Shown here: positions 39,608 through 61,468 of the stretch, in pieces
Position numbering within the stretch: position 1 is the first letter of the stretch
Layout of the letters: each line of letters opens with the position of its first letter
From: an uncultured Anaerolineae bacterium
GTDB lineage: Bacteria > Chloroflexota > Anaerolineae > DAOTYC01
Length of the DNA stretch: 61,468 nt
Assembly (NCBI GenBank): GCA_964589015.1
Contig: CAZPTF010000001.1
Location: 1-61,468, forward strand
Direction: 5' to 3'
Notes under the pieces: model-generated
Databases searched by the model: none
The model's input: the letters and a program-made list of their open reading frames with translations, nothing else
What the model was told of the DNA's origin: nothing
Program-made: the position numbers and the translations under genes

Positions 39608-39811
39608 AGGCGCTCTCTTCTGGATTGCTCATCTTTTGGTGTTCTCTCGCAGCTGTACGCTCATTGAACAGCGTGTTCCTCGTGATTCCACGCATGGATA
39701 AGCGCTCATGGCGAGTCGACAAGCCCGTTCTCGTTAGGAAGTGCCTAGGCGGAGTCGAGATTACTTCAGACTTCTGCACCATGGTATAGAATCCGGTCCG
39801 ACGAGCGGCCA

Positions 39812-40597: not shown

Positions 40598-40598
40598 T

Positions 40599-43437: not shown

Positions 43438-43467
43438 CGTAAGCACCTTTCAAATGGCCACCGGTCG

Positions 43468-46400: not shown

Positions 46401-47379
46401 GGCGACGCGTTGAGTAGTGCTGATCGAAGAGGTTGCAGGCATCCTCGGATGCGTCCGGGGGATGGAGCAGCTCGCGGTCTTCGGCGACAAACAAGAACAG
46501 CAGGCGGTACACGATCCGCAGGAGTTGTCGATAGTAGTCCTGCGTCGAGAGTTCGCCCTTCTCTAACTTGACCCGCAAGTGCTCGTTGCGTGGGTGGCCG
46601 ACAAAGCCGCGTCCCAGGGCTTCGATTGCTCGGGTGACGCCGGTGCGGAGATCGGCCAGGACGCGCGTGCCCTGCTCCTGAGCGAGCTTGCTCCACGTTT
46701 CGAGCCAGAACTCGTCGGGTTTGTCACCCTCAACGCGAGACTGGTGGCAGAGCATCCAGAGCAACGCGAAGTCGGCGTAGACCTCGCCTTCCATCATTGC
46801 TTCGACGTCGAACTCGACGTAGGCCTGGCGCGAAAGCGCCAGATTGTCGCGCAGTATGCGAAGCTGAAGCCCGTTCGACAGGAACGCCCACAGGTGGTCG
46901 TCAGAGCGGTTGAGGAACTCCTGCACCATGCTGTGTGGGCTGGCCGTGGCGGCGCCACGCACACCCTTGGTGCGGCGGTCGAGGGGCAGCTTGCAGCCGA
47001 TCAGGTGCAGCGGCACGCGGTGCCAGAAGCGCTCAATGGGGTAGACTTTGCCTTCGATCTCGGGCGACTTTGATGTTGTCAGTCGGCCGAAGCCCAGTTC
47101 CTGGAAGAGCGGTAGGAGCCATCGTTCGCGCGTTGGCACGGCGCCGCTCTCGTCACTGTCCGGAATGGCCTCACGGGCTTCCTGGAACACCTTCCAGTGC
47201 TTGAGCAGCCGAGTCCATGTCTGGCTGACAGCCTCATTGAGCTTGGTCGATGGGGGAAGGTGATAGGCATCGGGCGAAATACCCTCGACTTGGAGAGACG
47301 CGATGCGCTGGAGGATGTCCGGCGGCAGCATCGCGCCTTCGGAACGAATCGTCTGGAACTGTTCATTCTTACGCGCCAT
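43468..47379 (-). CDS. drmMI: large N6-adenine DNA methyltransferase (Eco57I/PglX-like); DISARM class-1 DrmMI-like
   Basis: Motif I 'VCDPASGSGHFLIAAA' and motif IV 'MLGNPPWD'. It is 1303 aa and its start overlaps the SNF2 gene stop by 11 nt. Confidence 0.85.
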   Translation of the reverse strand: MARKNEQFQTIRSEGAMLPPDILQRIASLQVEGISPDAYHLPPSTKLNEAVSQTWTRLLKHWKVFQEAREAIPDSDESGAVPTRERWLLPLFQELGFGRLTTSKSPEIEGKVYPIERFWHRVPLHLIGCKLPLDRRTKGVRGAATASPHSMVQEFLNRSDDHLWAFLSNGLQLRILRDNLALSRQAYVEFDVEAMMEGEVYADFALLWMLCHQSRVEGDKPDEFWLETWSKLAQEQGTRVLADLRTGVTRAIEALGRGFVGHPRNEHLRVKLEKGELSTQDYYRQLLRIVYRLLFLFVAEDRELLHPPDASEDACNLFDQHYSTRRLRELATKMRGSKHADLWHTLSLVFDALGHKEGCPQLGLAGLGSFLWSRKSTPDLLGPVGKDGDTVAGPVLIRNDDLLAAIRSLAYVERDKVLRGVDYRNLGSEELGSVYESLLELQPDMDAHARSFNLLTVAGSERKTSGSYYTPDSLVQCLLDSALEPVVKDALKGKKGDEAEEAILSLKVCDPASGSGHFLIAAAHRLSRHLARVRTGELEPTPADHQHALRDVIRRCIYGVDINPMAVELCKVSLWMEALEPGKPLTFLDHHIKCGNSLIGATPRLLKDGVPDDAFNAIEGDNKELCTAFKKRNKDERGGQALFTFEGALPWLKLGNMPQTFATLDAMSDDSLADVEAKAQRYTELIESSGYESAHLLADAWCAAFVWTKTREFDDAITESVFRRIEANPHDIVPWMKQEIRRLAEHYRFFHPHLGFPDVFQLPEESANADGHSGWSGGFDLMLGNPPWDTLSPDLKEFFAQYDPQIRFSEKDEQERIVAELSENPQIKAAWEQNRRDLYASVHFIKRSGRYRLFAKGNLGKGDFNVYRMFVETALDWTNTGCRAAQLTPENLYNGPNAAAIRRHLYDDTELELLLGFENLRGIWFPNIDGRTKFCLYVAAIGGRTSRFPTAFRIASLAELSPTMGKRLLMDVRLIREFSPAALAIPELESQEAVDVSVKVYDRWPKFGDTKRWRPVRKYMREVDMGTNRDLFNSDGDGLPVYEGRMVAQFDHRAKGYVSGRGRSAVWDDYSFGDPRKRIQPQWCIAEDKLPEKVLERVRCFRIGFCDVASPTNERSLVAAIIPPHTVAGDKVPTLLFENGLPWQMLPWQMLLWLTVANSFSMDYLIRRKVSLKMSYTTMDSMPFPTLVDDKPYARRCVELAAGLTCCGPEMVPLWRQLAADGWVAGSEPGSIEDEEERLKARAELDAIVARDILGLTASEMSFILEDFPTAAKYEIARWDTFRTRELILAQFAEPAEVASTAG
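43927..43959 (-). repeat. perfect in-frame 15-bp tandem duplication inside the methyltransferase gene
   Basis: The unit catctgccacggcag occurs twice (43930-43944 and 43945-43959) and is preceded by a partial 'cag'. It encodes 'LPWQM-LPWQM-L'. Confidence 0.9.
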
Positions 47380-50245: not shown

Positions 50246-53200
50246 TGGCTGCCTCCAAAGATGTCGCGGTACTGCCGAAAGACCGCATCCCAATCGGCGG
50301 CATGGTGGAAACGGATGACGAGATAGCCAGCCGCGAGCAGGCAGTCCGTAATTCGTTGATCTTCCGCTTGCTGGTCTGGCTCGTCATGCGGAGGCCCGTC
50401 GACATAAACCGCTGCGTTTGCGTCTTTGTAGAAGAAATCTGCGCGGGTGCGGCACGCGCTGATGAGGTGCTGACCGTGGGATGGGACGCGCAACCGCTTT
50501 TCCTCGACCTTGCGGAGCCACTTCTTCTCAAGTTGAGAATCGCAGCCCTGATTAAGCGCCGCCAGTAGGTCTTCACGCGTTTGCCGCCCGGGAGCCGTCC
50601 TTACGGTCGCTTGGGCAAGATCCCGCAGAACGTCAATGACCTTTTTGCGATCGATGATGCGGTGATCCAATTGGTTTCCGTATTCGAGGAGGCAGTCGTA
50701 GCAAGCCGCCTCGCAGCCGACTCCGTTTCCTGCCTCGCCGCCATGATCCTCACCGGTATCAGGGTCAAAGTGGCAGATCTCGATCGCCGTCCGAGCGATG
50801 CGACTCAGCGCATCTGCGTCCTCCACGAGTTGACGAAGGACACCAGCGCCGCCTTCTGCTGCTTCGTAGAAGAACAGCAAGCGTCGATCGTCACGGGAGG
50901 GCATGGCCTCTGCGGCAAGCTCTTCGGGTTCAAGCTGATACAACTGCTGGATCGCTTGCTTCAAGGCCGACTGCAACGATGCCATCACCGACGCGTCGTG
51001 GCGGACCTCGAACTCAACTGTCAGCGCATTGCGGCGGTCTTCAACATAAGGAACGACCCGCTCCACCCGCCGAGACATCGGATCATCTCGATCACCATCC
51101 TCCACTTCGCGGTTTCGAGCCCAATAGCCGCGTTCGACATCAAGCAGGAACCCCTTCTCGTTGGGATTGGAGCGCCGGAGCCACCCCAGGTTGACTCGCC
51201 AGATCGTCGCCGTGTCACCGTATTTGAGGGTGGCAATGTGACAAGGTCCGGACGCGACCTCTGCGGTTCGTACATCGGGAATAGCATCGACGTCCGAGAA
51301 GCGAAAGCTCGTGCGTATTTCGTAACCGATACGCTGTCTCTCTTCCTCGTCTGACGTGATTCTGTCCTTACGCCTGGCGGTAACGTTCTGCAAACGTACC
51401 ATCTCCCGAATCTCGTCTCGGGGATACAGCGGTTGATGACAATTGTCGCAGATGTCCACACCCGGCCCACTCGCGACGAGGTGCCCGTAGCCACAAACCG
51501 AGCAGGCCTTCATCGTTGCTTTCGTTAGGTCTTGTCCCTCCCTGTCGAAGGCCAGATTAACCTTGTTGATGACGTAACGTGCACCCTCGTGATAGACGAG
51601 TGCTTGCGGTCCAAACTCAGAAATGGCCAAGAAACGCGGGCGGGAGAGGTATTCGTCTCTTCCTCTTCGCCCACGACGTGCCGGAATGAACGCTGAGAGC
51701 GGCAGTCGCGGAAAGCTGTAGCCAGGCAGAAACGCCTCGCTGGCGAAGTACCGGTAGCTGTAGAAGTCGCCTTCTATAACTCCTTGGGGGCTGGTGAGCA
51801 GCTGAATCTGTGATTCCGCTTGCGCTCGAAGCCGCTTCGCTCGCTCCCGGTCAATTGCAGGTCGACTATGGTCACCAATCACCTGGTTCTGCAAGTGGCG
51901 CTGCTGAACGGCGGCCTTGTAGAGGCTTCGCCATCTTGTGCACGCCTCATCAAAGGTCTGAGGCAGTCGTGCAAGCACATCGTCAACCCAATCGTCCCGG
52001 TACCACGGGGCTTCGCCAAGCTCGGGCCCGATGCGCTGCAGCAGCGTTTTGGCGCGCTCCAGCGCGCGCAGGCGCACAGTAGCATCCCGTAGCCGCTCCT
52101 CGATCTCTGACTTCAGTGGCAACGACAAATCGTCCTCCGTAACGACGAGAACATCGGTAAGCGTCTGGCCCAGGTTCATTTGGGCCTCAGACAGCCACAC
52201 CGCATGAACGTGAGCTTGAATCAGGTCGCGGTTCAGGAGATCGAGTCGGGGCGCGGACACAGCTCCGCAGACCATGCCATTGGGATGTCGGAAGTAATAC
52301 TGATCGTGAGGACTGAAGCCCGAACAGTACGTGTACACGAGCGCCGGCTGCCCGCTGCGCCCTGCGCGCCCACTCCGTTGGGCATAGTTAGCTGGCGTGG
52401 GGGGCACGTTTCGCATGTTGACCACGTTGAGCTGAGCGATATCGACGCCCAACTCCATGGTTGGCGAACAGAACAAGATCGGGAGGTCACCGGCGCGGAA
52501 CCGCTGCTCCCGTTCAATCCGCACATCGGAAGGAACTTGAGCCGTGTGCTCGCGTGCTTCGAGACCGGCACCACTGTCGGCGAACGTCTTGTAGAACTCC
52601 ACAAAGTACTGGTTGGCTGCTCGGTCAACGTCGGTCTCGCGGGTAACTCGCAAGGGATCGACAAGCGGACAAGAACCGTCTCCGGCCCTCCAGTGCATTA
52701 CGGATGCAGGGACTTGGTAGCCAGGGACATCACCACCTTGTCGGGGTGATCGCACCTCTTCAACAAGTCCCCACTTCTTGAGCCCCTGAAAGAGGTCCGC
52801 CACGATTGTCGCCGTGTCGTCGAGCGTAAGCTGCCCCTCCGTGTGCGTCATTACGCCAGGACGGCGGAGATACAGCCCGAAGTTGCTTTGAGGCGAGACG
52901 AATATGTCCTCATGCCGCTCACGTGCGCCACGGCTCCGAGGCCACGCGACGCCAGCTCGCTCCATGGTGGCGGGGTCTTCGATGACCCAAGGGTCTCGTA
53001 GACGCTGCCGGCTCTGTTCGCTGATACGCTCTTGATATGTCGGGTTCAGCGTATCTTCTTTGACGGCGAGGCTACGCCGCATATGGTCGAGCAGCGTCCG
53101 GATCACGTCGGCGCGCTGAGCTGCGGTCGAGGCAATCAACGTGGCGTGCGCGTGGCGGTCCTGCCAAAACTGCATGTCGCAGGCAGCGTCATCCAGGCCA

Positions 53201-55428
53201 AGATACTCGATACGCAACAGCCCGCATTGCTCAAGGTTGGGGGAGGTGACACGCCAGCCGCGCTGCAGATCGCGGTAAAGGAAGTAAGCGAGAACAGAAC
53301 GCAGTGCACGCCGGGTTTCCTGCAAGGCGGGGCCACGGATTTCAGGATCATTGGCGTACAAGTCGATGGGCAAATCCATGGCGCGTTCGACATGCTGCAC
53401 GAGTTCGTCGTACGCCAGGCCCGCTTCCCCAACGCGCTGCATGGCCCGGAATAACGCAGATCGAATCAGGCCAACTTCAACAAAGTCGTTGAAATGCCCG
53501 GCTTGTAGCGAGGCGTCCTGTCGATTGTCTGTGAAGCTAAGCAGCTTGCGTGCTTTGTCTTCGAGGGTTTCTTCAACCCTAAGCTTTAGAATTGTCGAGA
53601 GTGCCAGGACCGACGTCGCTGTGCTTCGACCATCTACGCCGATTGTCGCGAGTTTTGAGAGGTCAGACCGCTGCCGTGCACTGTACGCCACGCTGCATTC
53701 AGGATTCAGGCAGAAGCGAAACGGCGTCGGAACGAATGCGAAGGCGAGGCCGTTTTCGGCCGGCCGACCATTCGGCGCAAGTCGCATGATCTCTGGCACC
53801 GGTTGCTTACGTTTGACGCGTCGAGTGCCGTCCGGACGTGTCTCGATCCAGTCGTCAGGAATGCGCTCCATCACGTCTTCGAAATCGCCGGTCCATGGAT
53901 GCTCACTCGAGAAATACAGGTAGCCCGTCTCGTACTCCTCGGAGATCGTCCGCTCGAATCTCTCCTTCGGGATGACCGGATCGTCCTTGCCGTGTATGGG
54001 TCGATCGACGCGATAGTAGGGCTGGCCACACTCGCGGCAGAAGACGAGCGGAAGCAAGATGCGATCACGGTCGCCCGGGACAAACTGCTGGCCACGAAGC
54101 GTCAAGAACCTTCGGTCCTCGGGCTCGAGGGATGACCAGATGGTATCTCCGCGTGTGATGAACTGGTGCAGTCGAAACGGGAAAAGTGGAAACCCGGTTT
54201 CATCGTCCAGCAGGCTGGCGCCGGCACGCAGGCAGTCTTGGACTGCGTGCTCTGCGGCAGCTCGATCACTATTCGTCAAGGTCGCTAATTCAAGTGCGGC
54301 CCCTTCGTCTCCGCTGATCGCTCGGGGCGTCTGACGTACCAGCTTCCCCGTGCATTCCTCGCGCCTTAGCCCAAAGACCGACTCAATCCAGGAAGCCAGC
54401 GCGTTCTCGCGAAACTCCTCGGCCTTGCCGGGTATCTGGCTCGGGTCAAGCACGACCGAACGTAGCGAATCGACATTATTGGCTGAATCAAAGTCGATGT
54501 CCGCGGTGATACGCCGCAGGCTCTCGCCGACAACCTGCTGAGGTCCAACTTCTTGGCCGAAAACCTCCGAAGCAACCGCCGCGACTGTCCGCGCCTGGGC
54601 TTCGCTATCGCCTTCCGAGGCCATCGTTGCCGAGGTTCCAATGCAGATCAGGTCGTCCCCGCTGAACGCCTCCCGGCACCGGCGAACTAGCATCGCTACA
54701 TCGGCGCCTTGACGCCCGCGATACGTGTGCAGCTCGTCCAAGATCAAAAACCGGAGGTTGCTTGCGTGTTCCACCAGCTGGCGTTCATCTACCCGCGTCA
54801 GAATGAGTTCGAGCATCACGTAGTTGGTGAGCAGAATGTCCGGCGGCTCGCGGAGAATGCGCTCCCGAGCAGCTGCATCCTCCTGCCCCGTGTAGCGGGC
54901 GTACGTAACCGGCGAGGTCCCCTCCCCGTATCCCAGCTTCAGGAACTTGTCGAGCTCCTCTTTTTGGCTGTTCGCCAGCGCATTCATCGGATAGACGACA
55001 ATCGCCTGCACCCCGCGGCCGGTGCCGTTTCGCAAAACGTAATCCACGGCGGGAATGATGTAGGCCAGGCTCTTGCCCGACCCCGTGCCTGTCGTGAGAA
55101 CGTAGGGCAAGCTCCGCTGGGCCAAACGGATCGCCTCAGTTTGGTGGCGGTGCAGCCGCAGAGGTCTGCCGTAGGGATCTTGAACCGTCTTCATTCGAAA
55201 CATCCTGCTGCACTCGGGCTGCAGGACTCCACTCTGCACGAGCTCGTCGACGGTCTCGCCCGTTTCGAACGCCGGGTTCAGCTGCAGGAGCGGTTCGGGC
55301 CAGAGCAGGCCCTGCTCAATCTCGGCGGTTACAGCCTGAAGAATGCGTTCGTCCCCGATGCGTATGAAGCTCCGAATATACGCCGCGTAGTCCGCGACGA
55401 CACGACGATGAAGTTCAAACACGTCCAT
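50242..55428 (-). CDS. drmA: 1728-aa fusion of DExH helicase, DUF1998-like Cys-rich domain and C-terminal DUF559/Vsr-like endonuclease; DrmA+DrmB-like
   Basis: Helicase motifs 'TGTGSGKS', 'LILDELHTY', 'GTSATM' and 'YAQRSGRAGR'. DUF1998-like Cys clusters 'CSVCGYG....CDNCH' and 'GCEAACYDCLLEYGNQ'. C-terminal 'ADFFYKDANAAVYVDGPPHD......D..R...L...GYLVIRFHH'. Confidence 0.85.
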   Translation of the reverse strand: MDVFELHRRVVADYAAYIRSFIRIGDERILQAVTAEIEQGLLWPEPLLQLNPAFETGETVDELVQSGVLQPECSRMFRMKTVQDPYGRPLRLHRHQTEAIRLAQRSLPYVLTTGTGSGKSLAYIIPAVDYVLRNGTGRGVQAIVVYPMNALANSQKEELDKFLKLGYGEGTSPVTYARYTGQEDAAARERILREPPDILLTNYVMLELILTRVDERQLVEHASNLRFLILDELHTYRGRQGADVAMLVRRCREAFSGDDLICIGTSATMASEGDSEAQARTVAAVASEVFGQEVGPQQVVGESLRRITADIDFDSANNVDSLRSVVLDPSQIPGKAEEFRENALASWIESVFGLRREECTGKLVRQTPRAISGDEGAALELATLTNSDRAAAEHAVQDCLRAGASLLDDETGFPLFPFRLHQFITRGDTIWSSLEPEDRRFLTLRGQQFVPGDRDRILLPLVFCRECGQPYYRVDRPIHGKDDPVIPKERFERTISEEYETGYLYFSSEHPWTGDFEDVMERIPDDWIETRPDGTRRVKRKQPVPEIMRLAPNGRPAENGLAFAFVPTPFRFCLNPECSVAYSARQRSDLSKLATIGVDGRSTATSVLALSTILKLRVEETLEDKARKLLSFTDNRQDASLQAGHFNDFVEVGLIRSALFRAMQRVGEAGLAYDELVQHVERAMDLPIDLYANDPEIRGPALQETRRALRSVLAYFLYRDLQRGWRVTSPNLEQCGLLRIEYLGLDDAACDMQFWQDRHAHATLIASTAAQRADVIRTLLDHMRRSLAVKEDTLNPTYQERISEQSRQRLRDPWVIEDPATMERAGVAWPRSRGARERHEDIFVSPQSNFGLYLRRPGVMTHTEGQLTLDDTATIVADLFQGLKKWGLVEEVRSPRQGGDVPGYQVPASVMHWRAGDGSCPLVDPLRVTRETDVDRAANQYFVEFYKTFADSGAGLEAREHTAQVPSDVRIEREQRFRAGDLPILFCSPTMELGVDIAQLNVVNMRNVPPTPANYAQRSGRAGRSGQPALVYTYCSGFSPHDQYYFRHPNGMVCGAVSAPRLDLLNRDLIQAHVHAVWLSEAQMNLGQTLTDVLVVTEDDLSLPLKSEIEERLRDATVRLRALERAKTLLQRIGPELGEAPWYRDDWVDDVLARLPQTFDEACTRWRSLYKAAVQQRHLQNQVIGDHSRPAIDRERAKRLRAQAESQIQLLTSPQGVIEGDFYSYRYFASEAFLPGYSFPRLPLSAFIPARRGRRGRDEYLSRPRFLAISEFGPQALVYHEGARYVINKVNLAFDREGQDLTKATMKACSVCGYGHLVASGPGVDICDNCHQPLYPRDEIREMVRLQNVTARRKDRITSDEEERQRIGYEIRTSFRFSDVDAIPDVRTAEVASGPCHIATLKYGDTATIWRVNLGWLRRSNPNEKGFLLDVERGYWARNREVEDGDRDDPMSRRVERVVPYVEDRRNALTVEFEVRHDASVMASLQSALKQAIQQLYQLEPEELAAEAMPSRDDRRLLFFYEAAEGGAGVLRQLVEDADALSRIARTAIEICHFDPDTGEDHGGEAGNGVGCEAACYDCLLEYGNQLDHRIIDRKKVIDVLRDLAQATVRTAPGRQTREDLLAALNQGCDSQLEKKWLRKVEEKRLRVPSHGQHLISACRTRADFFYKDANAAVYVDGPPHDEPDQQAEDQRITDCLLAAGYLVIRFHHAADWDAVFRQYRDIFGGSQ

Positions 55429-55437: not shown

Positions 55438-55638
55438 CTATCGTTTCGGCGCCTTACGCTTGGCAAGGTCGGTGAGCACCGTTGCGAGTTCCTTCTTAGA
55501 ATAAAGCCGGTAGCCTGTGATCGGGTGCCGACGTGCCTGCAGCTTGCCCGCCCGATCCCACCGGCGCATCGTGTCCTTGCTTACGCCCAGGAACTCGGCA
55601 GCCTCGCCGACCGTCAGGTACTCGTTGAGTTTCGCCAC
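55438..55638 (-). CDS. MerR/excisionase-type HTH_17 DNA-binding protein (66 aa)
   Basis: 'LTVGEAAEFLGVSKDTMRRWDRAGKLQARRHPITGYRLYSKKEL'. The GTG start is preceded by GGGGAG. It ends 9 nt before the DrmA-like gene. Confidence 0.8.
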   Translation of the reverse strand: MAKLNEYLTVGEAAEFLGVSKDTMRRWDRAGKLQARRHPITGYRLYSKKELATVLTDLAKRKAPKR

Positions 55639-56126
55639 GGCAATGCTCCCCGAGGGTTAGGCAGCATTATGCAATAGGTCGGCGTCGCGGTCCAGGGGTA
55701 GAGCCGGACTGGCCGTTCGTGTTAATGCGGGCACGGCTATCCGGAAGAGCCGTCGCGCGGCGACCAAGCCCGCCCGACGCTGCTCAAATGTCGACGACGA
55801 CTCCACTCGGTCCCAAACCATGGTCGGGCCCCCGTCATCTCCGGGATCCTCGTGGGCGGACCACACAATCGCGGTGGCTCCACCAGCCGGAAACCGGTCG
55901 ACGAGTCGGAATGCCGACTGGAACGGCTCGTCGGCGGACGTCTGGGCTGGGCCGTTCGAAACGTAACGTATTCATTGATAGATGTTTACGGAATGCTCTC
56001 CTCCCCCCAGCAAACGTGATTGTCTGGCTCAGCTACAGCCGCATCCGCACGGCGCGAACCCAGGTCCCACAGGACGTTACCGGCCTTCGTGACGTGCTCT
56101 GATGACGGGCTCTCCTGCGGAAGAAA

Positions 56127-56159
56127 CATGCTTGACACATCAAGCATGCTTGATATGTT
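56127..56159 (+). promoter_or_regulatory. sigma70-like promoter with embedded palindromic operator upstream of the XRE/pAgo operon
   Basis: -35 TTGACA (56132-56137), a 16-nt spacer, and -10 TATGTT (56154-56159). The palindrome CATGCTTGA-caca-TCAAGCATG spans 56127-56148 and overlaps the perfect 14-mer palindrome TCAAGCATGCTTGA (56140-56153). The SD GGAGGA is at 56170-56175 and the ATG at 56184. Confidence 0.55.
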
Positions 56160-56183
56160 ACGCAAAAATGGAGGATTCACCGG

Positions 56184-56531
56184 ATGCATTGCTTGGGACC
56201 AATGCTCGCAGAAGCTCGCACCCGTAAGAGGCTCAGCCAGCGTGCCGTGGAGGCAGAAACGGGGATTTCGAACGCTTACCTGAGCCAGATTGAAGGCGGC
56301 AAGGTTCGCAAACCGTCGCCGACCATGCTTCACAAGCTCGCCGAGCTCTACGAGTTGGACTACGCCACGGTACTTGATTGGGCCGGTTACCCTGTGCCTT
56401 CAGCAGAATCGCGCAAACAAGCATCGCGACTCGCAGCACGCATCGGCCCAACCACGGAGAAGGAGGAAGACGCGATCGCCGAGTACCTAGCCTTCCTGCG
56501 GTCAAAGAAGCGGAAGGGAGGAAGTAAGTGA
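56184..56531 (+). CDS. XRE (Cro/CI)-family HTH transcriptional regulator
   Basis: 'LSQRAVEAETGISNAYLSQIEGGKVRKPSPTMLHKLAELY'. A strong SD precedes the start. Its stop overlaps the next start (GTGA). Confidence 0.88.
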   Translation: MHCLGPMLAEARTRKRLSQRAVEAETGISNAYLSQIEGGKVRKPSPTMLHKLAELYELDYATVLDWAGYPVPSAESRKQASRLAARIGPTTEKEEDAIAEYLAFLRSKKRKGGSK

Positions 56532-57463
56532 TCTGGTCAATCTCAGCGAGCCGGACCTTCCGCCGTTGCCAGCGACAGTGGTACTTCAAGAGCCTAGTGG
56601 CAAACGCCAACGCGAAGAAGGATCCAGTTCGTCGAAGGGCATACCTGCTCAGCAAGCTTCAGAGCATCTGGGCGTGGCGTGGCCAGATCGTAGATAGTGT
56701 CATCAGCGACCGTCTTGTTCGAGCGATCAACGCGGGTGGTACGATTACGCTTGCTGACGCAAGAGCTGAGGCCCGTCGTCTGTTTGATCTTCAGTTGGCT
56801 TTCGCCCGAGAGCATCGGCTGCACGAGCCGGGCATGTCGGTCACCAAGGCCGGCGATGCGTTTGCGGCTTTCTACTGCATGGAATACGACGGCGAAATAG
56901 ACGACAATGAGATCGAACGGGCGTGGCAGGACGTGGAAATGGCGCTAGGCACGCTCTACAAACTCCGGGACGTCGCCGACGCAATGAAGTCCGCACGATA
57001 TTTGGTGGCTCAACGCGCTCTCTGCTTCAGCCATTCGGGCGAAACCGTTCGTGCGGTGCCCGATTTGATCGCGTTCCACGATGATCAGCCACCAATGATC
57101 ATTGACTGGAAGGTCCACACCCTTGGTCAGCATGAGGCTTGGCTCCAGCTCGGCACTTACGCCGTCGCGCTGGCCTTGTGCAGCCCGCACAACGATTTCC
57201 CACAGGGCAGGCAGTGGGTTGCCACCGACATCCGGCTGCTGGAGGTCCAACTACTCACGGGTGTGGTTAGACAGCATCACGTCACTGAAGAATCGGCCCG
57301 CGATATTGACGCCTACATTGCCGATAGCGTCAATCAAATCCGCCTGGCCATGCAACGCAAGGACAAACGTGCATTGGCACCTGAGGACTTCCCGACGACA
57401 TCGTATGCCGAGGCGTGCTCTTGGTGTCCCTACAAGGTGCTATGTTGGGAGGAAGAGGTGTGA
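56528..57463 (+). CDS. PD-(D/E)xK nuclease, Cas4/RecB/AddB-like with four Fe-S-type cysteines
   Basis: 'VPDLIAF' (D179), 'IIDWKV' (D193-x-K195) and 'WLQLGTYAVA' (QhxxY). The cysteines are C14 and 'CSWCPYKVLC' (C297, C300, C306). Confidence 0.82.
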   Translation: MIWSISASRTFRRCQRQWYFKSLVANANAKKDPVRRRAYLLSKLQSIWAWRGQIVDSVISDRLVRAINAGGTITLADARAEARRLFDLQLAFAREHRLHEPGMSVTKAGDAFAAFYCMEYDGEIDDNEIERAWQDVEMALGTLYKLRDVADAMKSARYLVAQRALCFSHSGETVRAVPDLIAFHDDQPPMIIDWKVHTLGQHEAWLQLGTYAVALALCSPHNDFPQGRQWVATDIRLLEVQLLTGVVRQHHVTEESARDIDAYIADSVNQIRLAMQRKDKRALAPEDFPTTSYAEACSWCPYKVLCWEEEV

Positions 57464-59838
57464 CGACACTGCGTATGAACACGTTTCCTATCACGAACCT
57501 CTCCGAGCTTGTCTCCGAGTACCGGCTGTATCGCATTCGTGGGCTTCGAGCCGGTCACCCGGAGTACTTCCAGAACAAGCAGATTCTCATCAGAAAGCTC
57601 AGCTACAGACTTCGTAGCCCGGTGACCGTCATCGAACGGGACGGAGAGCCCTATCTTGTCCTCCGCGCTGATACGAGTGAGCCTCCGTCGCCTTTCGTTC
57701 TTATCCGAACCAATGTCCTTTTTGACCAGTGCCCTGGTAGCTTCGAACTCGATTACACGAAGCGGTCACAGGACAACGACGAGATCTGCCTGCGGTTCTT
57801 GAATTTCATGCTGCAGCATCCTCTGTCTCAGTCTCCCTCGCTCTGGCAGCCAGGCGCCGGACAACCCTTCTTTCTGAAGGAGCCCGCAGAGAAGCAGCGT
57901 GGAATAGATAGGTATATTGGATTTGCGGTCCGGGCGATCATAACGCCTGACGGAGGGATGGGACTCTGCGTTGACTTGCGGACGAAGTTTGTGGCGAGCA
58001 GCCCGCTGCCCGCCACGGTTTCGCGAGATCAGTTCAGACGATGGAAGGGGCGCCACTGTATCTACAGGTATGGCCATCAGTGGTTCGATGTTCAATTGAG
58101 CGAGTTGTCTGACCTGACGGTATCAGAGACTCTGATCCCACTCAAAGGTGAGCAAGTACCTCTTGCGGATTTCATAATCGCGCAGGCACGGAAGCCGATC
58201 CCAAGAGAGCTTGCGGACCTGCCGCATGACGGTTCGGTATTGCTGTACGACAACAACAGACGCGAGACCCGTGCAGCACCGACATCGCTTTGCTACCCAG
58301 TTTTTGACACTCAGAGCAGTGAGGTGCAGCGTAACCACCGTAAAGCAGTGCCGCCACCACACCTGCGATACAGCCAGATTCTGCGTTTTGTCCGGGAGCA
58401 CTTACGGGAGCTCAGATTCGGTCGTACGCTTGTACGTGTAGCGTCGCAACCCCTGTCCCTCCCGCAGAAGATGTTCACGGTGCCTGATCTTGAGTTCGGG
58501 AACGGCAAGGTCTTGTCTGTACGCGGCACACCGGGGGCAGCCCACGTCAGCCTAGACAGTCTCGGACGACACCGCAGCGCGCTGCTACGCGATAGGTCAG
58601 CCGGATTCTACCTCACTGACCCCCTGCATCGGCAATATTTCATGTTGCCGCAGAGCATCGCAGATAGTGCCGGCGAGCGGTACCGACACGATCTTGCAGA
58701 TGCGGTGGATTCATTGTTTCCCCAAGAGCACGGCTACGATCCCGTTGTCGTCACATACAACGATCGCCGAGCCAGGACGTTCCTTGAGCAAGGTAAGGCG
58801 ATCCTGGAGGCCGCTCGGGAACACTGCCCAAAACCCGGTTATGCGCTGGTGATGATCCACGAGACGCAGGATCGGCGCATCCGTCAACACGATCAACTGG
58901 CCGCAATGGTCATTCGCGAGCTACGTGGCTTGGACGTGATTGCTGCGGTCAACCACTCGTCAATGGTGACTGACTGCTACGAGATGGTGCATCTTGGGAA
59001 TGGGTCGCCCCGCTACGAGCCTTGCCGGAGACACAGGGGCAAGCTCGCCGGATACTTGCGTAACGTGGCGTTGAACAAAGTGTTGCTAACAAGCGAACGA
59101 TGGCCATTCGTGCTCGCCACGCCGCTGCACGCTGATGTCACCGTAGGTATCGATGTGAAAGAGAACACCGCTGGCTTCACAGTAGTTGCGTCGCGTGGGC
59201 GGATCATCCGCACGCAGTGCTTTGAGTCCAGTCAGCGAGAGAAGTTGCTTGCGGGACAAATCACAAAGCATCTAGTGGATCTGATCTCCGCGGAACGAGC
59301 GTCCATCCCGGAGCCGCTCCGACACATCGTAGTGCACCGGGATGGCCGTGCATTCGACACGGAACTCGAAGGCGCGCAGCGTGCCCTACAGGTGCTTCGA
59401 GACACCGGGATCGCGGACGCCAATTCGACCATGACCGTATTGGAGATAACGAAGTCATCGCTTGTCCCGGCGCGTGTGTTTGAGGTTACTCGTCGCCAGA
59501 ACGGGCGCGACTGGGTAGAAAACCCGCAGGTTGGAACGTACTACATCAACAATGCCGGCGAAGGGTATCTCTGTGCGACAGGCCGTGCCTTCCCGCGAGA
59601 TGGAACAGTGCAGCCGCTTCATGTCCGCTGTGTAACGGAAGGTCTGGATTTCGAGAAATGCTTGGAAGATCTCTATGCGCTGACCACGCTGGCGTGGACA
59701 CGTCCGGAGGATTGCACACGATATCCAATCACGATCAAACTGACCGACCGTCGTCTTGGCGAGGATGCAGGGGAGTACGACGCAGATGCCTTGGAGTTCG
59801 ACGAGCAGAGAATAGCAGTGAAGGAGACGACCACATGA
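57460..59838 (+). CDS. long prokaryotic Argonaute (pAgo) with an apparently complete DEDD PIWI tetrad
   Basis: PIWI signatures, numbered from the ORF opening at 57415: 'VTVGIDVKE' (D580, 59152-59154), 'SQREKLL' (E609), 'IVVHRDGR' (D643, 59341-59343), 'GTYYINNAGEGYLCATG' and 'YPITIKLTDRRL' (D778, 59746-59748). The GTG at 57460 overlaps the nuclease stop (GTGA) after 'GGGAGGAAGAGG'; an alternative ATG lies at 57475. Confidence 0.85.
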   Translation: MTTLRMNTFPITNLSELVSEYRLYRIRGLRAGHPEYFQNKQILIRKLSYRLRSPVTVIERDGEPYLVLRADTSEPPSPFVLIRTNVLFDQCPGSFELDYTKRSQDNDEICLRFLNFMLQHPLSQSPSLWQPGAGQPFFLKEPAEKQRGIDRYIGFAVRAIITPDGGMGLCVDLRTKFVASSPLPATVSRDQFRRWKGRHCIYRYGHQWFDVQLSELSDLTVSETLIPLKGEQVPLADFIIAQARKPIPRELADLPHDGSVLLYDNNRRETRAAPTSLCYPVFDTQSSEVQRNHRKAVPPPHLRYSQILRFVREHLRELRFGRTLVRVASQPLSLPQKMFTVPDLEFGNGKVLSVRGTPGAAHVSLDSLGRHRSALLRDRSAGFYLTDPLHRQYFMLPQSIADSAGERYRHDLADAVDSLFPQEHGYDPVVVTYNDRRARTFLEQGKAILEAAREHCPKPGYALVMIHETQDRRIRQHDQLAAMVIRELRGLDVIAAVNHSSMVTDCYEMVHLGNGSPRYEPCRRHRGKLAGYLRNVALNKVLLTSERWPFVLATPLHADVTVGIDVKENTAGFTVVASRGRIIRTQCFESSQREKLLAGQITKHLVDLISAERASIPEPLRHIVVHRDGRAFDTELEGAQRALQVLRDTGIADANSTMTVLEITKSSLVPARVFEVTRRQNGRDWVENPQVGTYYINNAGEGYLCATGRAFPRDGTVQPLHVRCVTEGLDFEKCLEDLYALTTLAWTRPEDCTRYPITIKLTDRRLGEDAGEYDADALEFDEQRIAVKETTT

Positions 59839-60194
59839 GCGGAATCGAGGTACATCCGGGCGTGTATTCGAAGATTCGCGCTTACGCGGAGCTTGTAGAT
59901 CGAGTGTTGGGCGAACTGCGCCGGGGACACGTGTCCGATACGGGTGTTCAGCGGCTGCGACTTAGCTCGCTACTGATGGCCGTTGGCGACGGTGAACGAA
60001 TTAGTGCGGACGCGAAATTGCTGGAATGGATGCTTCGCGAAGGCGGATGCCCCTCCCCCAAGCGGTTGAACGAGATGGGGCATCAACTGGATTCGGGCGA
60101 CTCCTCGCCAGAGCTGTTGATTGATCTTGAGTCACTGGCCAAGACTTTGGAACGGGAGCGCGCAAGCGCCTTCGCGAGGATGCGCGGACGATGA
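59835..60194 (+). CDS. hypothetical protein (119 aa), pAgo-operon accessory
   Basis: ATGA overlap with the pAgo stop. The composition is helical and protein-like. No motif recognised. Confidence 0.65.
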   Translation: MSGIEVHPGVYSKIRAYAELVDRVLGELRRGHVSDTGVQRLRLSSLLMAVGDGERISADAKLLEWMLREGGCPSPKRLNEMGHQLDSGDSSPELLIDLESLAKTLERERASAFARMRGR

Positions 60195-61345
60195 CGCTGG
60201 ACGAGTACATTCGCGGAGTGACAAGCCAGCTTGAGCGACGTGTCCGAGAGCTGCGTATGCGAATTCATCGGCAGCTTCCAAGGGACTACGACGCGCTGGC
60301 GCAGAAATGCCGAGAGAAGCTAGATGGTGTACTGGTCGACCTTCGCTCTGTTCGTGACGAATACGCCGACGTAGATAGTCAGCCGGCTCGATTGCGACAC
60401 CTCAGACGAACGGTGTCGGACCTCAGCCAGCTTGAGACAGTAGCCGTCGCGGCGCTGGATCGTGCGAGAGAAGACGATCATTACCTAAACGAGTTGCTGT
60501 ATCGAATCACTCGCGAGATCGGGTATCCGCTTATAACACCGGTTGTCACCACGCTGTCGAGTGAGTACTTCCACATTTACCCCGACTTCAACCTCTTGTG
60601 CGTGCCCCTCAGCGAGGGGAAGTTCTTGCTACACCTGCCAGATCTTTATCATGAGCTGGCTCACCCGCTTCTAGTTGTTCGTGATGAACCACTAGTTGAG
60701 TCTTTCCAACGCGCTCAGGATGCTTGCCTGGCGCAAGTGCTATCCTACTTGCAGGGTGAGAAAACGAAGGCGGGGCGGCGGCGATCACCGGATTCGTTGA
60801 GCTACCAGATCGAACTGTGGGAGCTGACCTGGATCCGTTCGTGGCTGGACGAGTTCATGTGCGATCTTTTCGCAGTGTACACATTGGGGCCCGCTTTCGC
60901 GTGGTCGCATCTGCATCTCTCAATGCTGCGTGGTCAGGATCCCTTTGAAGTTCCAAGGCTGCAGTTTTCAAGTCACCCAGCAGACGATGCGCGGATGCAA
61001 ACGATGCTTGTCGGCCTAGCTCAATCCGGGTTCGAACAGGGCGCTGGTGAGATCGAGGAAGCTTGGCGGTCCTTTCTGTGTAGCTGCGGCGCGAGCGCGG
61101 AACCTGAATATGGGCACTGCTTTCCCGCACCGTTACTGGCTACCATTGCGGGAGCGACGCGACGGGGTATCGCGGGAATGAAGTGCCGATTGGCGGAGCC
61201 ATCAACTTCGGATCCCGTGCATCTGTGTCTGTCAGACGCGTGGCGGGAGTTTCGGCGCGATCCATCCGGATACCCCCAATGGGAGGAAACCTGTGTGCGC
61301 GAACGGCTCATAAGCAACGGAGTTGGTCGAGTTATTCGTGGCTAG
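60191..61345 (+). CDS. hypothetical HExxH (zincin-like) protein (384 aa), pAgo-operon accessory
   Basis: ATGA overlap with the upstream gene. 'LYHELAHPL' (60650-60664) is followed ~63 aa later by 'WLDEFMCDLFAVYTLGPAF', a possible gluzincin third ligand. Confidence 0.75.
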   Translation: MTLDEYIRGVTSQLERRVRELRMRIHRQLPRDYDALAQKCREKLDGVLVDLRSVRDEYADVDSQPARLRHLRRTVSDLSQLETVAVAALDRAREDDHYLNELLYRITREIGYPLITPVVTTLSSEYFHIYPDFNLLCVPLSEGKFLLHLPDLYHELAHPLLVVRDEPLVESFQRAQDACLAQVLSYLQGEKTKAGRRRSPDSLSYQIELWELTWIRSWLDEFMCDLFAVYTLGPAFAWSHLHLSMLRGQDPFEVPRLQFSSHPADDARMQTMLVGLAQSGFEQGAGEIEEAWRSFLCSCGASAEPEYGHCFPAPLLATIAGATRRGIAGMKCRLAEPSTSDPVHLCLSDAWREFRRDPSGYPQWEETCVRERLISNGVGRVIRG

Positions 61346-61468
61346 CGCGACGTCCTCGCACGGATGCTGTCGCAAGAGGCGCTTCAGCTGGTGTCGCCGG
61401 GCGGGTTGAATTAGGCCACCGGTGGGCGGGTTAAAACCGGCCAGTTTTCCTTCCTTCCATATACAACA

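What the first reader, a model, noticed from the sequence alone, without database searches (positions are those of the whole stretch)
56184..61345. Five-gene, fully translationally coupled pAgo operon with two uncharacterised accessory genes
Seen in the sequence:
- Five plus-strand genes are joined exclusively by 4-nt stop/start overlaps: GTGA at 56528, GTGA at 57460, ATGA at 59835 and ATGA at 60191.
- The central 793-807-aa protein has PIWI signatures, and every DEDD position appears occupied (GIDV, QREK, HRDG, LTDRR).
- The gene before it is a Cas4/AddB-like PD-(D/E)xK nuclease with the QhxxY motif and four Cys.
- The genes after it are a 119-aa protein and a 384-aa HExxH protein with no family I can name.

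Established knowledge: pAgos are nucleic-acid-guided defence nucleases. They are often encoded with nucleases, helicases, SIR2/TIR or membrane effectors. Catalytically inactive long-B and short pAgos depend on such partners.

Inference: an apparently active long pAgo is locked stoichiometrically to a Cas4-like nuclease and two unknown proteins, one a putative metalloprotease. I do not recognise this composition as a described pAgo system. The nuclease may act as a guide generator and the two unknowns as a sensor/effector or regulator pair.
Basis: partly seen in the sequence, partly recalled or inferred. Interest (0 to 1): 0.82.

Follow-up and report, generated by a model that had tools for sequence, protein, structure and literature searches.

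The report
PliAgo-type RNA-cutting Argonaute operon
This is a new member of an already described family of bacterial Argonaute defence operons (the PliAgo type, which uses small DNA guides to cut RNA), but its last two genes, found in every such operon we examined, have never been named or studied and may be the missing half of the system.

Summary
Five + strand genes (56184-61345) are joined by GTGA/GTGA/ATGA/ATGA overlaps.

- **What it is.** The 792-aa protein is a full-length Argonaute, 33.5% identical to PliAgo. It has an intact DEDD tetrad (D565/E594/D628/D763) and the PliAgo-type MID pocket.
- **What was already known.** The set of XRE regulator, Cas4-like PD-(D/E)XK nuclease and this pAgo clade was published in 2022 (Lisitskaya et al.). 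PADLOC models the nuclease and the pAgo. The composition is therefore not undescribed.
- **What is not described.** The 119-aa and 384-aa genes are not discussed in any paper I could search.
  - They follow the pAgo in every examined locus with enough sequence (88 loci). These include the published PliAgo and RslAgo loci and the sigma-70-type PnyAgo-group operons.
  - Loci found with the 384-aa protein alone always carry a pAgo upstream (50/50).
  - The 384-aa protein has an invariant HExxH…ExxCD…HP signature. Its confident model matches no solved or viral structure. It is occasionally fused to a CHAT protease domain.
- **Regulation.** A conserved 16-bp operator overlaps the operon promoter (34/35 loci).

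Verdict: a new member of a known kind, carrying two uncharacterised core components. Their protease role is inferred, not shown.

The parts
56132..56159 (+). Sigma-70-type promoter of the operon: TTGACA, 16-nt spacer, TATGTT, with a TG extended -10.
   Evidence: 10 of 12 consensus matches. It is the only + strand promoter-like site in 55600-61468.
56130..56163 (.). Two adjacent copies of a conserved 16-bp operator. GCTTGACACATCAAGC (56130-56145) lies over the -35 box. The degenerate GCTTGATATGTTACGC (56148-56163) lies over the -10 box. This is the predicted binding site of the gene-1 repressor.
   Evidence: 18-nt inverted-repeat arms at 56129-56146 and 56147-56164; the motif GCT[TA][GA]-N(0-14)-[TC][TA]AGC lies within 120 nt upstream of gene 1 in 34 of 35 loci, against 2.7% of random 120-nt windows from the same loci.
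56184..56531 (+). Gene 1: 115-aa XRE/Cro-type HTH regulator, the predicted autorepressor. It has an N-terminal HTH, an AGYPVP linker and a conserved basic C-terminal helix (EYLxFLRSRKR).
   Evidence: Pfam HTH_31 1.6e-12 and HTH_3 7e-11. PADLOC HTH_VI 2e-9 and capH 5.5e-8. Alignment of 33 orthologues.
56528..57463 (+). Gene 2: 311-aa Cas4/AddB-like PD-(D/E)XK nuclease with four Fe-S cluster cysteines.
   Evidence: Pfam PDDEXK_1 2.3e-13. PADLOC Aga_Cas4-like_Nuc 'Class II' 9.6e-118. Invariant C14, D179, D193, K195, Q207, Y211, C297, C300, C306 in 72 sequences. It scores below the Cas4 equivalog cut-off (19.3 vs 65 bits).
57460..59838 (+). Gene 3: 792-aa long-A prokaryotic Argonaute of the PliAgo group, predicted to be a DNA-guided RNA endonuclease. 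The catalytic tetrad is D565/E594/D628/D763. MID-pocket residues are H499/Y532; K760 is also conserved.
   Evidence: PDB 7R8F/7R8K PliAgo, E about 1e-146 over residues 3-782. PADLOC pAgo_II 2.8e-293. Tetrad and MID residues mapped by alignment. Biochemistry of the homologues from PMC9360449.
59835..60194 (+). Gene 4: 119-aa soluble protein of unknown function. It is the fastest-evolving gene of the operon and has a conserved C-terminal ER(A/S)xxF(A/R)(R/K)(M/L/I)R motif.
   Evidence: No family hits. An ORF of 117-161 aa lies between the pAgo and gene 5 in 88 of 88 loci. Orthologues are 27-39% identical. The short and long forms are homologous (HHalign 96.4%, E 1.3e-9). No transmembrane segment.
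60191..61345 (+). Gene 5: 384-aa mainly alpha-helical soluble protein of an unnamed family. Invariant residues are H154-E155-x-x-H158, E221-x-x-C224-D225 and H262-P263...R268. It is predicted to be a zinc hydrolase, possibly a peptidase.
   Evidence: 942 homologues and 1282 50%-identity clusters, all unnamed. Invariant columns. AlphaFold2 model with mean pLDDT 92.8 and pTM 0.90, showing three short strands before the HExxH helix. No Foldseek match with E below 0.1 in PDB or BFVD. CHAT-domain fusions occur within the same operon elsewhere.

Best explanation
The locus is a self-contained PliAgo-type ('D-R', DNA-guided RNA-cleaving) Argonaute defence cassette in a metagenomic, probably planctomycete, chromosome.

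**How I think it works**
1. *Regulation.* One sigma-70 promoter carries two copies of a conserved 16-bp operator over its -35 and -10 boxes. Gene 1, an XRE repressor, binds them and keeps the translationally coupled operon at a low, fixed stoichiometry. The anatomy is shown; the binding is inferred.
2. *Guide supply.* Gene 2, a Cas4-like Fe-S nuclease, processes invader DNA into small 5'-phosphorylated DNAs. This is inferred and is the published authors' own untested proposal.
3. *Targeting.* Gene 3, the Argonaute, loads these DNA guides in its Mg-independent PliAgo-type pocket and slices complementary transcripts. This was shown in vitro for PliAgo and RslAgo. For this protein it is inferred from conserved catalytic and pocket residues.
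4. *Accessory pair.* Genes 4 and 5 are not optional extras. Together with the nuclease and the pAgo they form an invariant four-gene core, while the regulator is interchangeable (XRE, or a sigma-70 factor plus a 180-aa protein).

My committed model is that gene 5 is a zinc-dependent hydrolase, most likely a peptidase. I propose that it works with or on the small gene-4 protein as an output or signal-transducing module of the pAgo-nuclease core, rather than as a dedicated partner of the repressor.

Confidence in the identity of the system is about 0.9. Confidence in the gene 4/5 role is about 0.35.
For: **Identity**
- PDB hit to PliAgo at 1e-146.
- DEDD tetrad conserved.
- H499, Y532 and K760 conserved, with neutral residues at the canonical YKQK positions.
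- PADLOC pAgo_II and Aga_Cas4-like_Nuc matches.
- Published operon description and biochemistry.

**Same five genes in the reference loci**
- Pseudooceanicola lipolyticus (L030).
- Runella slithyformis pRUNSL03, carrying RslAgo WP_013921749.1.

**Four-gene core**
- Genes 4 and 5 follow the pAgo in all 36 genome loci that extend far enough.
- The same holds in a distant XRE-type subgroup and in sigma-70-type PnyAgo-group operons on Emticicia and Spirosoma plasmids.
- Loci retrieved with gene 5 alone have a pAgo upstream in 50 of 50 cases with more than 1.5 kb of flank. They have pAgo plus nuclease in 43 of 43 cases with more than 3 kb.

**Hydrolase idea**
- HExxH, E221/D225 and H262 are invariant at 24-30% pairwise identity.
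- The model shows three short strands, then the HExxH helix, then a later helix carrying E221 and D225.
- A small clade has a C-terminal CHAT protease domain fused to gene 5 inside the same operon.
- One member carries a second HExxH-like region.

**Autoregulation**
- Promoter, inverted repeat and operator in 34 of 35 loci.
Against: - No experiment anywhere addresses genes 4 and 5.
- Gene 5 matches no peptidase family by sequence (Pfam, NCBIfam, PHROGs, PADLOC; a PDB profile search).
- It matches none by fold either: Foldseek against PDB and BFVD gave a best E of 0.2-0.4.
- The truncated core domain modelled poorly (pLDDT 71.6) and also matched nothing.
- HExxH motifs also occur in non-peptidases and can be structural.
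- Purified PliAgo and RslAgo slice RNA in vitro without any partner, so genes 4 and 5 are not needed for catalysis itself.
- I could not inspect the model's coordinates, so I do not know whether the conserved His/Glu/Asp residues converge on one site.
- No in vivo defence phenotype has been reported for any D-R pAgo in the papers searched.
Confidence: 0.6

Rival explanations
1. Genes 1 and 5 form an ImmR/ImmA-, DdrO/IrrE- or CapH/CapP-type switch. Gene 5 would be a signal-activated metallopeptidase, triggered for example by ssDNA or by pAgo activity. It would cleave the gene-1 repressor near its conserved C-terminal FLR motif and so induce the operon. Gene 4 would modulate the protease.
For: - Gene 1 resembles the PADLOC capH profile over nearly its full length (5.5e-8).
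- It has the same HTH-linker-C-terminal helix layout.
- A conserved operator overlaps the promoter.
- Gene 5 has an invariant HExxH and a later E..D..FA..GP stretch that recalls the M78 'E.EAN.FA..L.P' motif (the motif is from my own knowledge).
- The CapP peptidase domain has a three-stranded sheet and His-His-Glu zinc ligands. The gene-5 model has three short strands before its HExxH helix.
Against: - Genes 4 and 5 are equally conserved in sigma-70-type operons that have no XRE gene 1. Gene 5 is therefore not tied to that repressor.
- The two genes sit at opposite ends of the operon rather than adjacent, as CapH/CapP pairs do.
- There is no Pfam Peptidase_M78 hit and no Foldseek match to IrrE or CapP structures in the PDB.
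- The candidate glutamate lies 63 residues after the HExxH, not about 29 as in CapP.
Confidence: 0.2
2. Genes 4 and 5 are guide-biogenesis or guide-loading cofactors. They would help the Cas4-like nuclease and the pAgo turn duplex invader DNA into single-stranded 5'-P guides. The conserved His/Glu/Asp site would act on nucleic acid or simply hold a structural metal.
For: - They co-occur with both the nuclease and the pAgo in every locus examined, in a fixed, translationally coupled order.
- D-R pAgos must obtain DNA guides from invaders by an unknown route.
- MbpAgo work proposes that guides derive from dsDNA.
- Gene 5's long helical N-terminal bundle could serve as an interaction scaffold.
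Against: - Neither protein has a recognisable nucleic-acid-binding or nuclease fold.
- Gene 5 is acidic (pI 5.7) and gene 4 near neutral.
- Fusion to a CHAT protease domain fits an output role better than guide processing.
Confidence: 0.2
3. The system is a long-B-type abortive-infection system (BPAN-like). The Argonaute would only sense the target, and the PD-(D/E)XK nuclease would be the collateral DNase effector.
For: - A pAgo sits next to a PD-(D/E)XK nuclease, as in BPAN.
- The locus lies in a defence island.
Against: - BPAN pAgos are catalytically inactive. Here the DEDD tetrad is intact and homologues slice RNA.
- The nuclease is the Cas4-like Fe-S type and precedes the pAgo. BPAN uses a RecB-like bAgaN.
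- The closest solved relative is PliAgo, a long-A pAgo.
Confidence: 0.05

Closest known systems
PliAgo / RslAgo operons (PliAgo group of D-R long-A pAgos; Lisitskaya et al. 2022, PMC9360449; PDB 7R8F-7R8K)
   Same: - Same five genes in the same order in the P. lipolyticus and R. slithyformis loci.
- DEDD tetrad, the H/Y MID-pocket residues and K760 all conserved.
- Preceding Cas4-like nuclease and HTH regulator, as published.
   Different: - Only 33.5% identical to PliAgo.
- MID residues R467 and S501 are E468 and M502 here; both positions vary within the group.
- The paper's text names three genes. The two downstream genes are not discussed in it.
PnyAgo/MbpAgo-group D-R pAgo operons (sigma-70 type)
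   Same: - Nuclease, pAgo, a small gene-4-like protein and a gene-5-like protein in the same order.
- The gene-5 signature residues are conserved.
   Different: - The regulator is a sigma-70-family factor plus a 180-aa protein instead of an XRE repressor.
- The pAgo has the standard HKQK-type MID pocket, according to the paper.
- Gene 5 is only 24-26% identical.
CapH/CapP, ImmR/ImmA and DdrO/IrrE repressor-metallopeptidase switches
   Same: - A short XRE repressor with a C-terminal helix, and a palindromic operator at the promoter of an immune operon.
- A co-encoded HExxH protein.
   Different: - Gene 5 has no detectable sequence or fold similarity to M78 peptidases.
- It is not adjacent to the repressor.
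- It persists where the repressor is replaced by a sigma factor.
Type III-E CRISPR 'Craspase' (gRAMP/Cas7-11 with the TPR-CHAT protease Csx29, its substrate Csx30 and an ECF sigma factor). From my own knowledge; not retrieved here.
   Same: - A guide-directed RNA-targeting nuclease is co-encoded with a putative protease, a small partner protein and a transcription factor (sigma-70 in the PnyAgo type).
- A CHAT domain is fused to gene 5 in some operons.
   Different: - There is no homology between the components.
- Guides are DNA, not crRNA.
- Protease activity of gene 5 and any coupling to the pAgo are wholly untested.
- The window's gene 5 has no CHAT domain.
BPAN (long-B pAgo plus bAgaN nuclease; Song et al. 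2023, PMC10620215)
   Same: A long pAgo is co-encoded with a PD-(D/E)XK nuclease, sometimes with an HTH regulator nearby.
   Different: - The BPAN pAgo is inactive and uses RNA guides on DNA targets to unleash a collateral DNase.
- Here the pAgo is catalytically intact and of the DNA-guide, RNA-target clade.

Membership tests
PliAgo-group D-R long-A pAgo | Full-length (N-PAZ-MID-PIWI) homology to PliAgo | tested here: met
   phmmer against PDB: 7R8F/7R8K, E about 1e-146, query 3-782 aligned to chain 2-781. 33.5% identity over 784 aligned columns.
PliAgo-group D-R long-A pAgo | Catalytic DEDD tetrad in PIWI (PliAgo D563/E592/D626/D762) | tested here: met
   Window D565/E594/D628/D763. All four are conserved in all 36 aligned relatives.
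PliAgo-group D-R long-A pAgo | PliAgo-type MID pocket: absolutely conserved His and Tyr (H498, Y530), and no (Y/H/R)KQK motif | tested here: met
   H499 and Y532 are present (36 of 36 sequences). A481/I485/T544 sit at the canonical charged positions. R467 and S501 are E468 and M502, but these two positions vary within the group.
PliAgo-group D-R long-A pAgo | Operon with a preceding PD-(D/E)XK nuclease and an HTH regulator | tested here: met
   Genes 1 and 2. Published description.
PliAgo-group D-R long-A pAgo | DNA-guided RNA cleavage with the cut shifted to 9'/10' | not testable with these tools
   Biochemical property, shown for PliAgo and RslAgo only.
Cas4 (CRISPR-associated) proper | Score above the Cas4 family cut-off | tested here: not met
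   NCBIfam TIGR00372 cas4: 19.3 bits against a cut-off of 65. It is Cas4-like, not Cas4.
Cas4/AddB-like PD-(D/E)XK Fe-S nucleases | D...(D/E)xK and QxxxY catalytic motifs, plus the C...CxxCx5C cysteine set | tested here: met
   D179, D193-W-K195, Q207...Y211, C14 and C297/C300/C306 are at least 96% conserved in 72 sequences. Pfam PDDEXK_1 2.3e-13.
Long-B pAgo BPAN system | Catalytically inactive PIWI | tested here: not met
   Intact DEDD tetrad. BPAN definition.
ImmA/IrrE/CapP (M78) metallopeptidase, for gene 5 | HExxH zinc motif | tested here: met
   H154-E155-L-A-H158, invariant in every alignment made.
ImmA/IrrE/CapP (M78) metallopeptidase, for gene 5 | Sequence match to the family model | tested here: not met
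   No Peptidase_M78 hit for any of 44 members at E up to 10. None in NCBIfam, PHROGs or PADLOC. A PDB profile search returned no peptidase.
ImmA/IrrE/CapP (M78) metallopeptidase, for gene 5 | Fold similarity to solved IrrE/CapP-type domains | tested here: not met
   Foldseek of the pLDDT 92.8 model against PDB gave a best E of 0.38 and no peptidase among the hits. The core-domain model also gave nothing, but its quality was poor.
ImmA/IrrE/CapP (M78) metallopeptidase, for gene 5 | Third zinc ligand, a Glu about 25-30 residues after the HExxH | tested here: inconclusive
   The nearest invariant acidic residues are E221 and D225, 63-67 residues downstream. CapP uses E129, 29 residues after H100.
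CapH-like XRE repressor, for gene 1 | XRE HTH with a C-terminal helix, and a palindromic operator at its own promoter | tested here: met
   HTH_31/HTH_3. capH profile 5.5e-8. Operator in 34 of 35 loci.
CapH-like XRE repressor, for gene 1 | Cleavage by a partner peptidase on a DNA-damage signal | not testable with these tools
   Needs biochemistry.

The most novel reading that the evidence does not exclude
D-R Argonaute systems would not be simple slicers. They would be four-component RNA-sensing immune machines. When the DNA-guided pAgo recognises a transcript, a new-fold zinc peptidase (gene 5) would be switched on or released. It would cleave the small gene-4 protein or another substrate. 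That cleavage would trigger a transcriptional response (through the XRE or sigma-70 module) or a toxic secondary response. This would be an Argonaute counterpart of the type III-E CRISPR 'Craspase' pathway. In some lineages a CHAT caspase-like domain has been added to the same protein.
Probability: 0.15. Interest if true: 0.85.

Novelty: new member of a known kind. Interest (0 to 1): 0.5.

Why it matters
D-R pAgos (PliAgo, RslAgo, PnyAgo, MbpAgo) are being developed as programmable RNA-cutting tools. The papers I could search report no in vivo role for them.

All published work treats the Argonaute alone, or mentions only the nuclease and the regulator. Here, two further proteins belong to the invariant core of every D-R operon type examined. 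One carries a conserved metal-hydrolase signature on a fold with no match among solved or viral structures.

If these proteins mediate the real output of the system, reconstitutions with pAgo alone miss the biology. The operons of RslAgo and PliAgo, whose pAgos have already been cloned, could be tested directly with single-gene deletions.

The conserved 16-bp operator also gives a ready handle on how the cassette is kept silent.

Tried and rejected
1. **Family searches for genes 4 and 5.** Pfam (single proteins and all 44 family members at E up to 10), NCBIfam, PHROGs and PADLOC gave nothing.
2. **Profile search of the gene-5 family against PDB sequences.** Only coiled-coil noise, E of 0.02 or worse.
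3. **Foldseek of the full gene-5 model.** No match with E below 0.1 against PDB or BFVD.
4. **Re-modelling the putative catalytic core alone (residues 92-262).** Quality dropped to pLDDT 71.6, the strands were lost and nothing matched. This is uninformative rather than negative.
5. **Exhaustive HMM search of 1.8 billion representatives.** It found 1282 clusters, but the 150 best hits listed are all the same family. No bridge to a named family emerged.
6. **Homology search with gene 4 alone.** It found only two proteins because the sequence diverges fast. I recovered the family by position instead.
7. **Shared C-terminal tail in genes 1 and 4.** HHalign shows no relation (probability below 1%), so I dropped the idea.
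8. **BPAN/long-B reading.** Rejected because the tetrad is intact.
9. **True CRISPR Cas4.** Rejected: the score is below the family cut-off and no CRISPR context was found.
10. **A nine-sequence distant alignment** was too divergent for the metagenome scan. I replaced it with four sequences.
11. **Phage collection.** No gene-5 homologue.
12. **Rfam scan of the window.** No hits. No intrinsic terminator was found in 55600-61468.
13. **Literature searches** for pAgo with a metalloprotease, or for in vivo work on D-R pAgo operons, found nothing relevant.

Full report
**1. The observation**

The window carries five + strand ORFs at 56184-56531, 56528-57463, 57460-59838, 59835-60194 and 60191-61345. 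The stop and start codons overlap by 4 nt at every junction: GTGA, GTGA, ATGA, ATGA. Each internal start has a Shine-Dalgarno-like GGAGG, AGGAG or GAGGA 8-12 nt upstream. The pAgo start at 57460 (792 aa) is preferred over the longer 807-aa ORF. It aligns with the N-terminus of PliAgo and matches independent gene calls on identical metagenome contigs.

**2. The three recognisable genes**

- **Gene 1** is an XRE-type HTH protein (Pfam HTH_31 1.6e-12; PADLOC HTH_VI 2e-9 and capH 5.5e-8).
- **Gene 2** is a PD-(D/E)XK nuclease (PDDEXK_1 2.3e-13). It matches PADLOC 'Aga_Cas4-like_Nuc, Class II' at 9.6e-118.
  - Across 72 distinct orthologues, D179, D193-W-K195, Q207...Y211 and the cysteines C14, C297, C300 and C306 are at least 96% conserved.
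  - That is the Cas4/AddB catalytic and Fe-S pattern. The protein still scores far below the Cas4 equivalog cut-off (19.3 vs 65 bits).
- **Gene 3** matches PADLOC pAgo_II at 2.8e-293.
  - Its closest solved relative is 'Argonaute' 7R8F-7R8K (E about 1e-146, residues 3-782). These are the PliAgo entries of Lisitskaya et al. 2022.
  - The PliAgo catalytic residues D563/E592/D626/D762 correspond to D565/E594/D628/D763 here. They are conserved in all 36 relatives aligned.
  - The PliAgo-type guide pocket is present. The two residues the paper calls absolutely conserved (H498, Y530) are H499 and Y532. The canonical (Y/H/R)KQK positions are neutral (A481, I485, T544). K759 is K760.
  - Identity to PliAgo is 33.5%.

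**3. What is already published**

Lisitskaya et al. (PMC9360449) showed that PliAgo and RslAgo use DNA guides to cleave RNA and are inactive on other guide/target combinations. [quoted passage not shown] The pAgo is preceded by a PD-(D/E)XK nuclease 'distantly related to Cas4'. The PliAgo group also has an HTH regulator, and the PnyAgo group a sigma-70 factor. They speculate that the nuclease makes guides or helps degrade targets, and say the biological role is unknown.

The paper's text and the supplements held here say nothing about the two downstream genes. Later papers that mention PliAgo do not discuss them either. As of 2024, in vivo work on pAgos was limited to DNA-targeting proteins. 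Targeted literature searches found nothing on them.

**4. The two unknown genes are core components**

*Family size.* Gene 5 has 942 homologues in the word-indexed search, all 'hypothetical'. It has 1282 clusters at 50% identity in the exhaustive search.

*Genome loci.* Three divergent members (46-55% identical) sit in the same five-gene operon in a Phycisphaerales MAG, a Rivularia genome and an alphaproteobacterial MAG. A genome scan with a pAgo profile gave 36 loci. They come from Planctomycetota, Chloroflexota, Cyanobacteria, Acidobacteriota, Verrucomicrobiota, Alphaproteobacteria, Latescibacterota, Nitrospirota, Bacteroidota and others. Every locus that extends far enough has the HTH gene, the nuclease, the pAgo, an ORF of about 120 aa, and gene 5.

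*The reference loci.* The same holds for the Pseudooceanicola lipolyticus locus that encodes PliAgo itself (L030). It also holds for Runella slithyformis plasmid pRUNSL03. There RslAgo (WP_013921749.1, the accession used in the paper) is followed by two 'hypothetical proteins' of 125 and 378 aa.

*The reverse test.* I searched a metagenome collection with a distant gene-5 subfamily only, about 28-30% identical to the window protein. Of the 80 loci kept, 50 of 50 with more than 1.5 kb upstream carry a pAgo. All 43 with more than 3 kb carry pAgo plus nuclease. These operons again start with an XRE gene. Their pAgo lies between PliAgo and the 8XIH/9WMD protein in similarity.

*Sigma-70-type operons.* On Emticicia and Spirosoma plasmids the order is sigma-70 factor, 180-aa protein, nuclease, an 829-aa pAgo, a protein of 128-132 aa, and a gene-5 homologue of 382-387 aa. 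That pAgo matches 8XIH at 4e-140, so I assign it to the PnyAgo/MbpAgo group.

*Summary of this section.*
- The nuclease, pAgo, gene 4 and gene 5 form an invariant four-gene core. Only the regulator is exchanged.
- A gene-4-like ORF of 117-161 aa is present in 88 of 88 loci that include both the pAgo 3' end and gene 5. The 4-nt overlap is the commonest junction.
- The short and long forms of gene 4 are homologous (HHalign 96.4%, E 1.3e-9).

**5. What genes 4 and 5 look like**

Gene 4 is soluble with no transmembrane segment. It evolves fastest of the five genes (27-39% identity where gene 5 shows 43-55%). It keeps an N-terminal MSxxG/S...Y and a C-terminal ER(A/S)xxF(A/R)(R/K)(M/L/I)R motif in all operon types.

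Gene 5 is soluble and acidic (pI 5.7). With a 44-sequence alignment AlphaFold2 gives a confident model (mean pLDDT 92.8, pTM 0.90). The model has an N-terminal bundle of long helices, then three short strands (118-137). Next comes a helix carrying H154-E155-x-x-H158, then long helices carrying E221, C224 and D225, then a loop with H262-P263. These residues, with W214, W218, R268, W292 and W351, stay invariant at 24-30% pairwise identity across all operon types. That is the pattern expected of a metal-dependent active site.

No search ties the protein to any known family:
- Pfam, NCBIfam, PHROGs and PADLOC.
- A profile search of PDB sequences.
- Foldseek against PDB and BFVD, with a best E of 0.2-0.4.

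A re-modelled core fragment was of poor quality and equally silent. 'Metalloprotease' is therefore an inference from motifs and topology, not a demonstrated membership.

Two hints come from domain fusions. Three clusters of gene-5 homologues carry a C-terminal CHAT (caspase-like protease) domain (Pfam 4.3e-9). They still sit in the same operon. One homologue carries a second HExxH-like region.

**6. Regulation**

The only + strand promoter-like site in the region is TTGACA-16 nt-TATGTT at 56132-56159, with an extended -10 TG. It lies inside an inverted repeat with 18-nt arms (56129-56164). The half-site pattern GCTTGACA-N(4-6)-TTAGC/CAAGC occurs within 120 nt upstream of gene 1 in 34 of 35 loci across phyla, often twice. 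It occurs in 2.7% of random windows from the same loci. In the window, one copy lies over the -35 box and a degenerate copy over the -10 box.

Gene 1 orthologues share the recognition helix (SNAYLSQLE), an AGYPVP linker and a basic C-terminal helix. The simplest reading is autorepression of the whole cassette by gene 1. The cassette appears to move between hosts with its own promoter and operator.

**7. Mechanism and rivals**

*Shown for close homologues.* DNA-guided RNA slicing by the pAgo.

*Inferred from anatomy.* Autorepression by gene 1, and an active Fe-S nuclease.

*Speculative, and shared with the literature.* The nuclease as guide generator.

*Genes 4 and 5.* I favour a role within the core as an output or transducing hydrolase module, probably proteolytic. 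Three observations support this:
- They stay with the pAgo and nuclease when the regulator is swapped.
- Gene 5 carries an invariant HExxH-type signature.
- Gene 5 has acquired a CHAT protease domain in one lineage.

*Main rival.* Genes 1 and 5 could form a CapH/CapP- or ImmR/ImmA-like switch. This is weakened because gene 5 persists without gene 1, the two genes are not adjacent, and gene 5 shows no similarity to M78 peptidases.

*Other rivals.* A guide-biogenesis role cannot be excluded. A BPAN-like abortive-infection reading is contradicted by the intact tetrad.

**8. Context**

- The window is part of a 71-kb metagenome contig (JGI 3300034686). An IS21 IstB gene lies about 415 nt beyond gene 5 in that contig.
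- Immediately upstream, on the other strand, is a large cluster of defence-type genes:
  - a 1728-aa DEAD/MZB/DUF559 helicase that matches DruE;
  - a DpdE/DrmD-like SNF2 helicase;
  - a DrmMI/type IIG-like methyltransferase;
  - a DUF2290-helicase pair;
  - a GmrSD/Orf5-like protein;
  - a 66-aa MerR/mad1-like HTH.
- The far end of the window encodes Ser/Thr kinases with FGE-sulfatase and FHA domains.
- The closest pAgo operons are planctomycete.

**9. Verdict**

This is an ordinary, new member of a known system type. What remains of value is that genes 4 and 5 belong to the invariant core of all D-R pAgo operon types examined, and are untouched in the literature I could search. Interest is moderate (0.5). 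The most novel reading not excluded is a protease-coupled, Craspase-like RNA-sensing pathway, with a probability of about 0.15.

Noticed in passing
window 43468-55428 (- strand): Three very large defence-type genes sit back to back. The first is a 1303-aa DrmMI/type IIG-like methyltransferase. The second is a 974-aa SNF2 helicase (PADLOC DpdE 8e-265, DrmD 4e-85). The third is a 1728-aa DEAD + MrfA Zn-binding (MZB) + DUF559 helicase (PADLOC DruE 5e-106). Together they look like a DISARM/Dpd/Druantia-like hybrid cluster.
   Followed up: partly
window 55438-55638 (- strand): A 66-aa MerR/excisionase-type HTH protein (PADLOC mad1 3e-12) lies between the big helicase and the pAgo operon, divergent from gene 1. 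A weak - strand promoter-like site is at 55694-55666.
   Followed up: no
window 37511-43446 (- strand): Further defence candidates. These are a 698-aa Orf5/HEC-06/GmrSD-like protein (1e-166), a DUF2290 protein (1e-38) and a 717-aa helicase matching PADLOC 'Helicase' PDLC03002 (1e-232). A 285-aa gene between them has no hit.
   Followed up: no
window 764-12631 (- strand): A run of large Ser/Thr protein kinases, one fused to an FGE-sulfatase domain and one to a Laminin_G_3 domain, plus an FHA-domain protein. I take this gene content as suggestive of a planctomycete chromosome.
   Followed up: no
L127 7570-8352 (parent contig, about 415 nt beyond the end of gene 5): In the 71-kb parent contig an IS21-family IstB ATPase gene follows the operon, and the contig ends there. 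The cassette may border a mobile element.
   Followed up: no
L125 8001-9830; L126 8001-9806: Gene-5 homologues of 601-623 aa carry a C-terminal CHAT (caspase-like) domain and still sit last in an HTH-nuclease-pAgo-gene 4 operon. In L125 the nuclease gene appears split into two short ORFs.
   Followed up: partly
P0146 (799 aa): This gene-5 homologue has a C-terminal extension of about 400 aa. The extension contains a second HExxH-like stretch (LHEFLHIEQH ... YADYDADAFAVDV) and has no Pfam hit.
   Followed up: no
L037 and L038 (pAgo at 6001 onwards); L031; L026: In several genomes the cassette is disrupted. The pAgo match stops midway and gene 4 resumes 2-2.4 kb later, with a 327-aa ORF in between (L037, L038). 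The pAgo is truncated in L031. Gene 5 is displaced by about 1.5 kb in L026. These are probably insertion-sequence hits.
   Followed up: no
L124 7444-9623; L123 1-485: The RslAgo operon on pRUNSL03 is followed by genes for a multiubiquitin-domain protein, a ThiF adenylyltransferase and a DUF6527 protein. A multiubiquitin gene also flanks the Spirosoma sigma-70-type operon. A ubiquitin-like conjugation defence module may be a recurrent neighbour.
   Followed up: no
L122 1587-2129; L123 1479-2024: In sigma-70-type D-R pAgo operons, a conserved 180-aa protein with no Pfam hit follows the sigma factor with a 4-nt overlap. It contains an HTH-like stretch (LSIDTLASKLGVAPNLIADLL) and could be an anti-sigma or co-regulator.
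   Followed up: no
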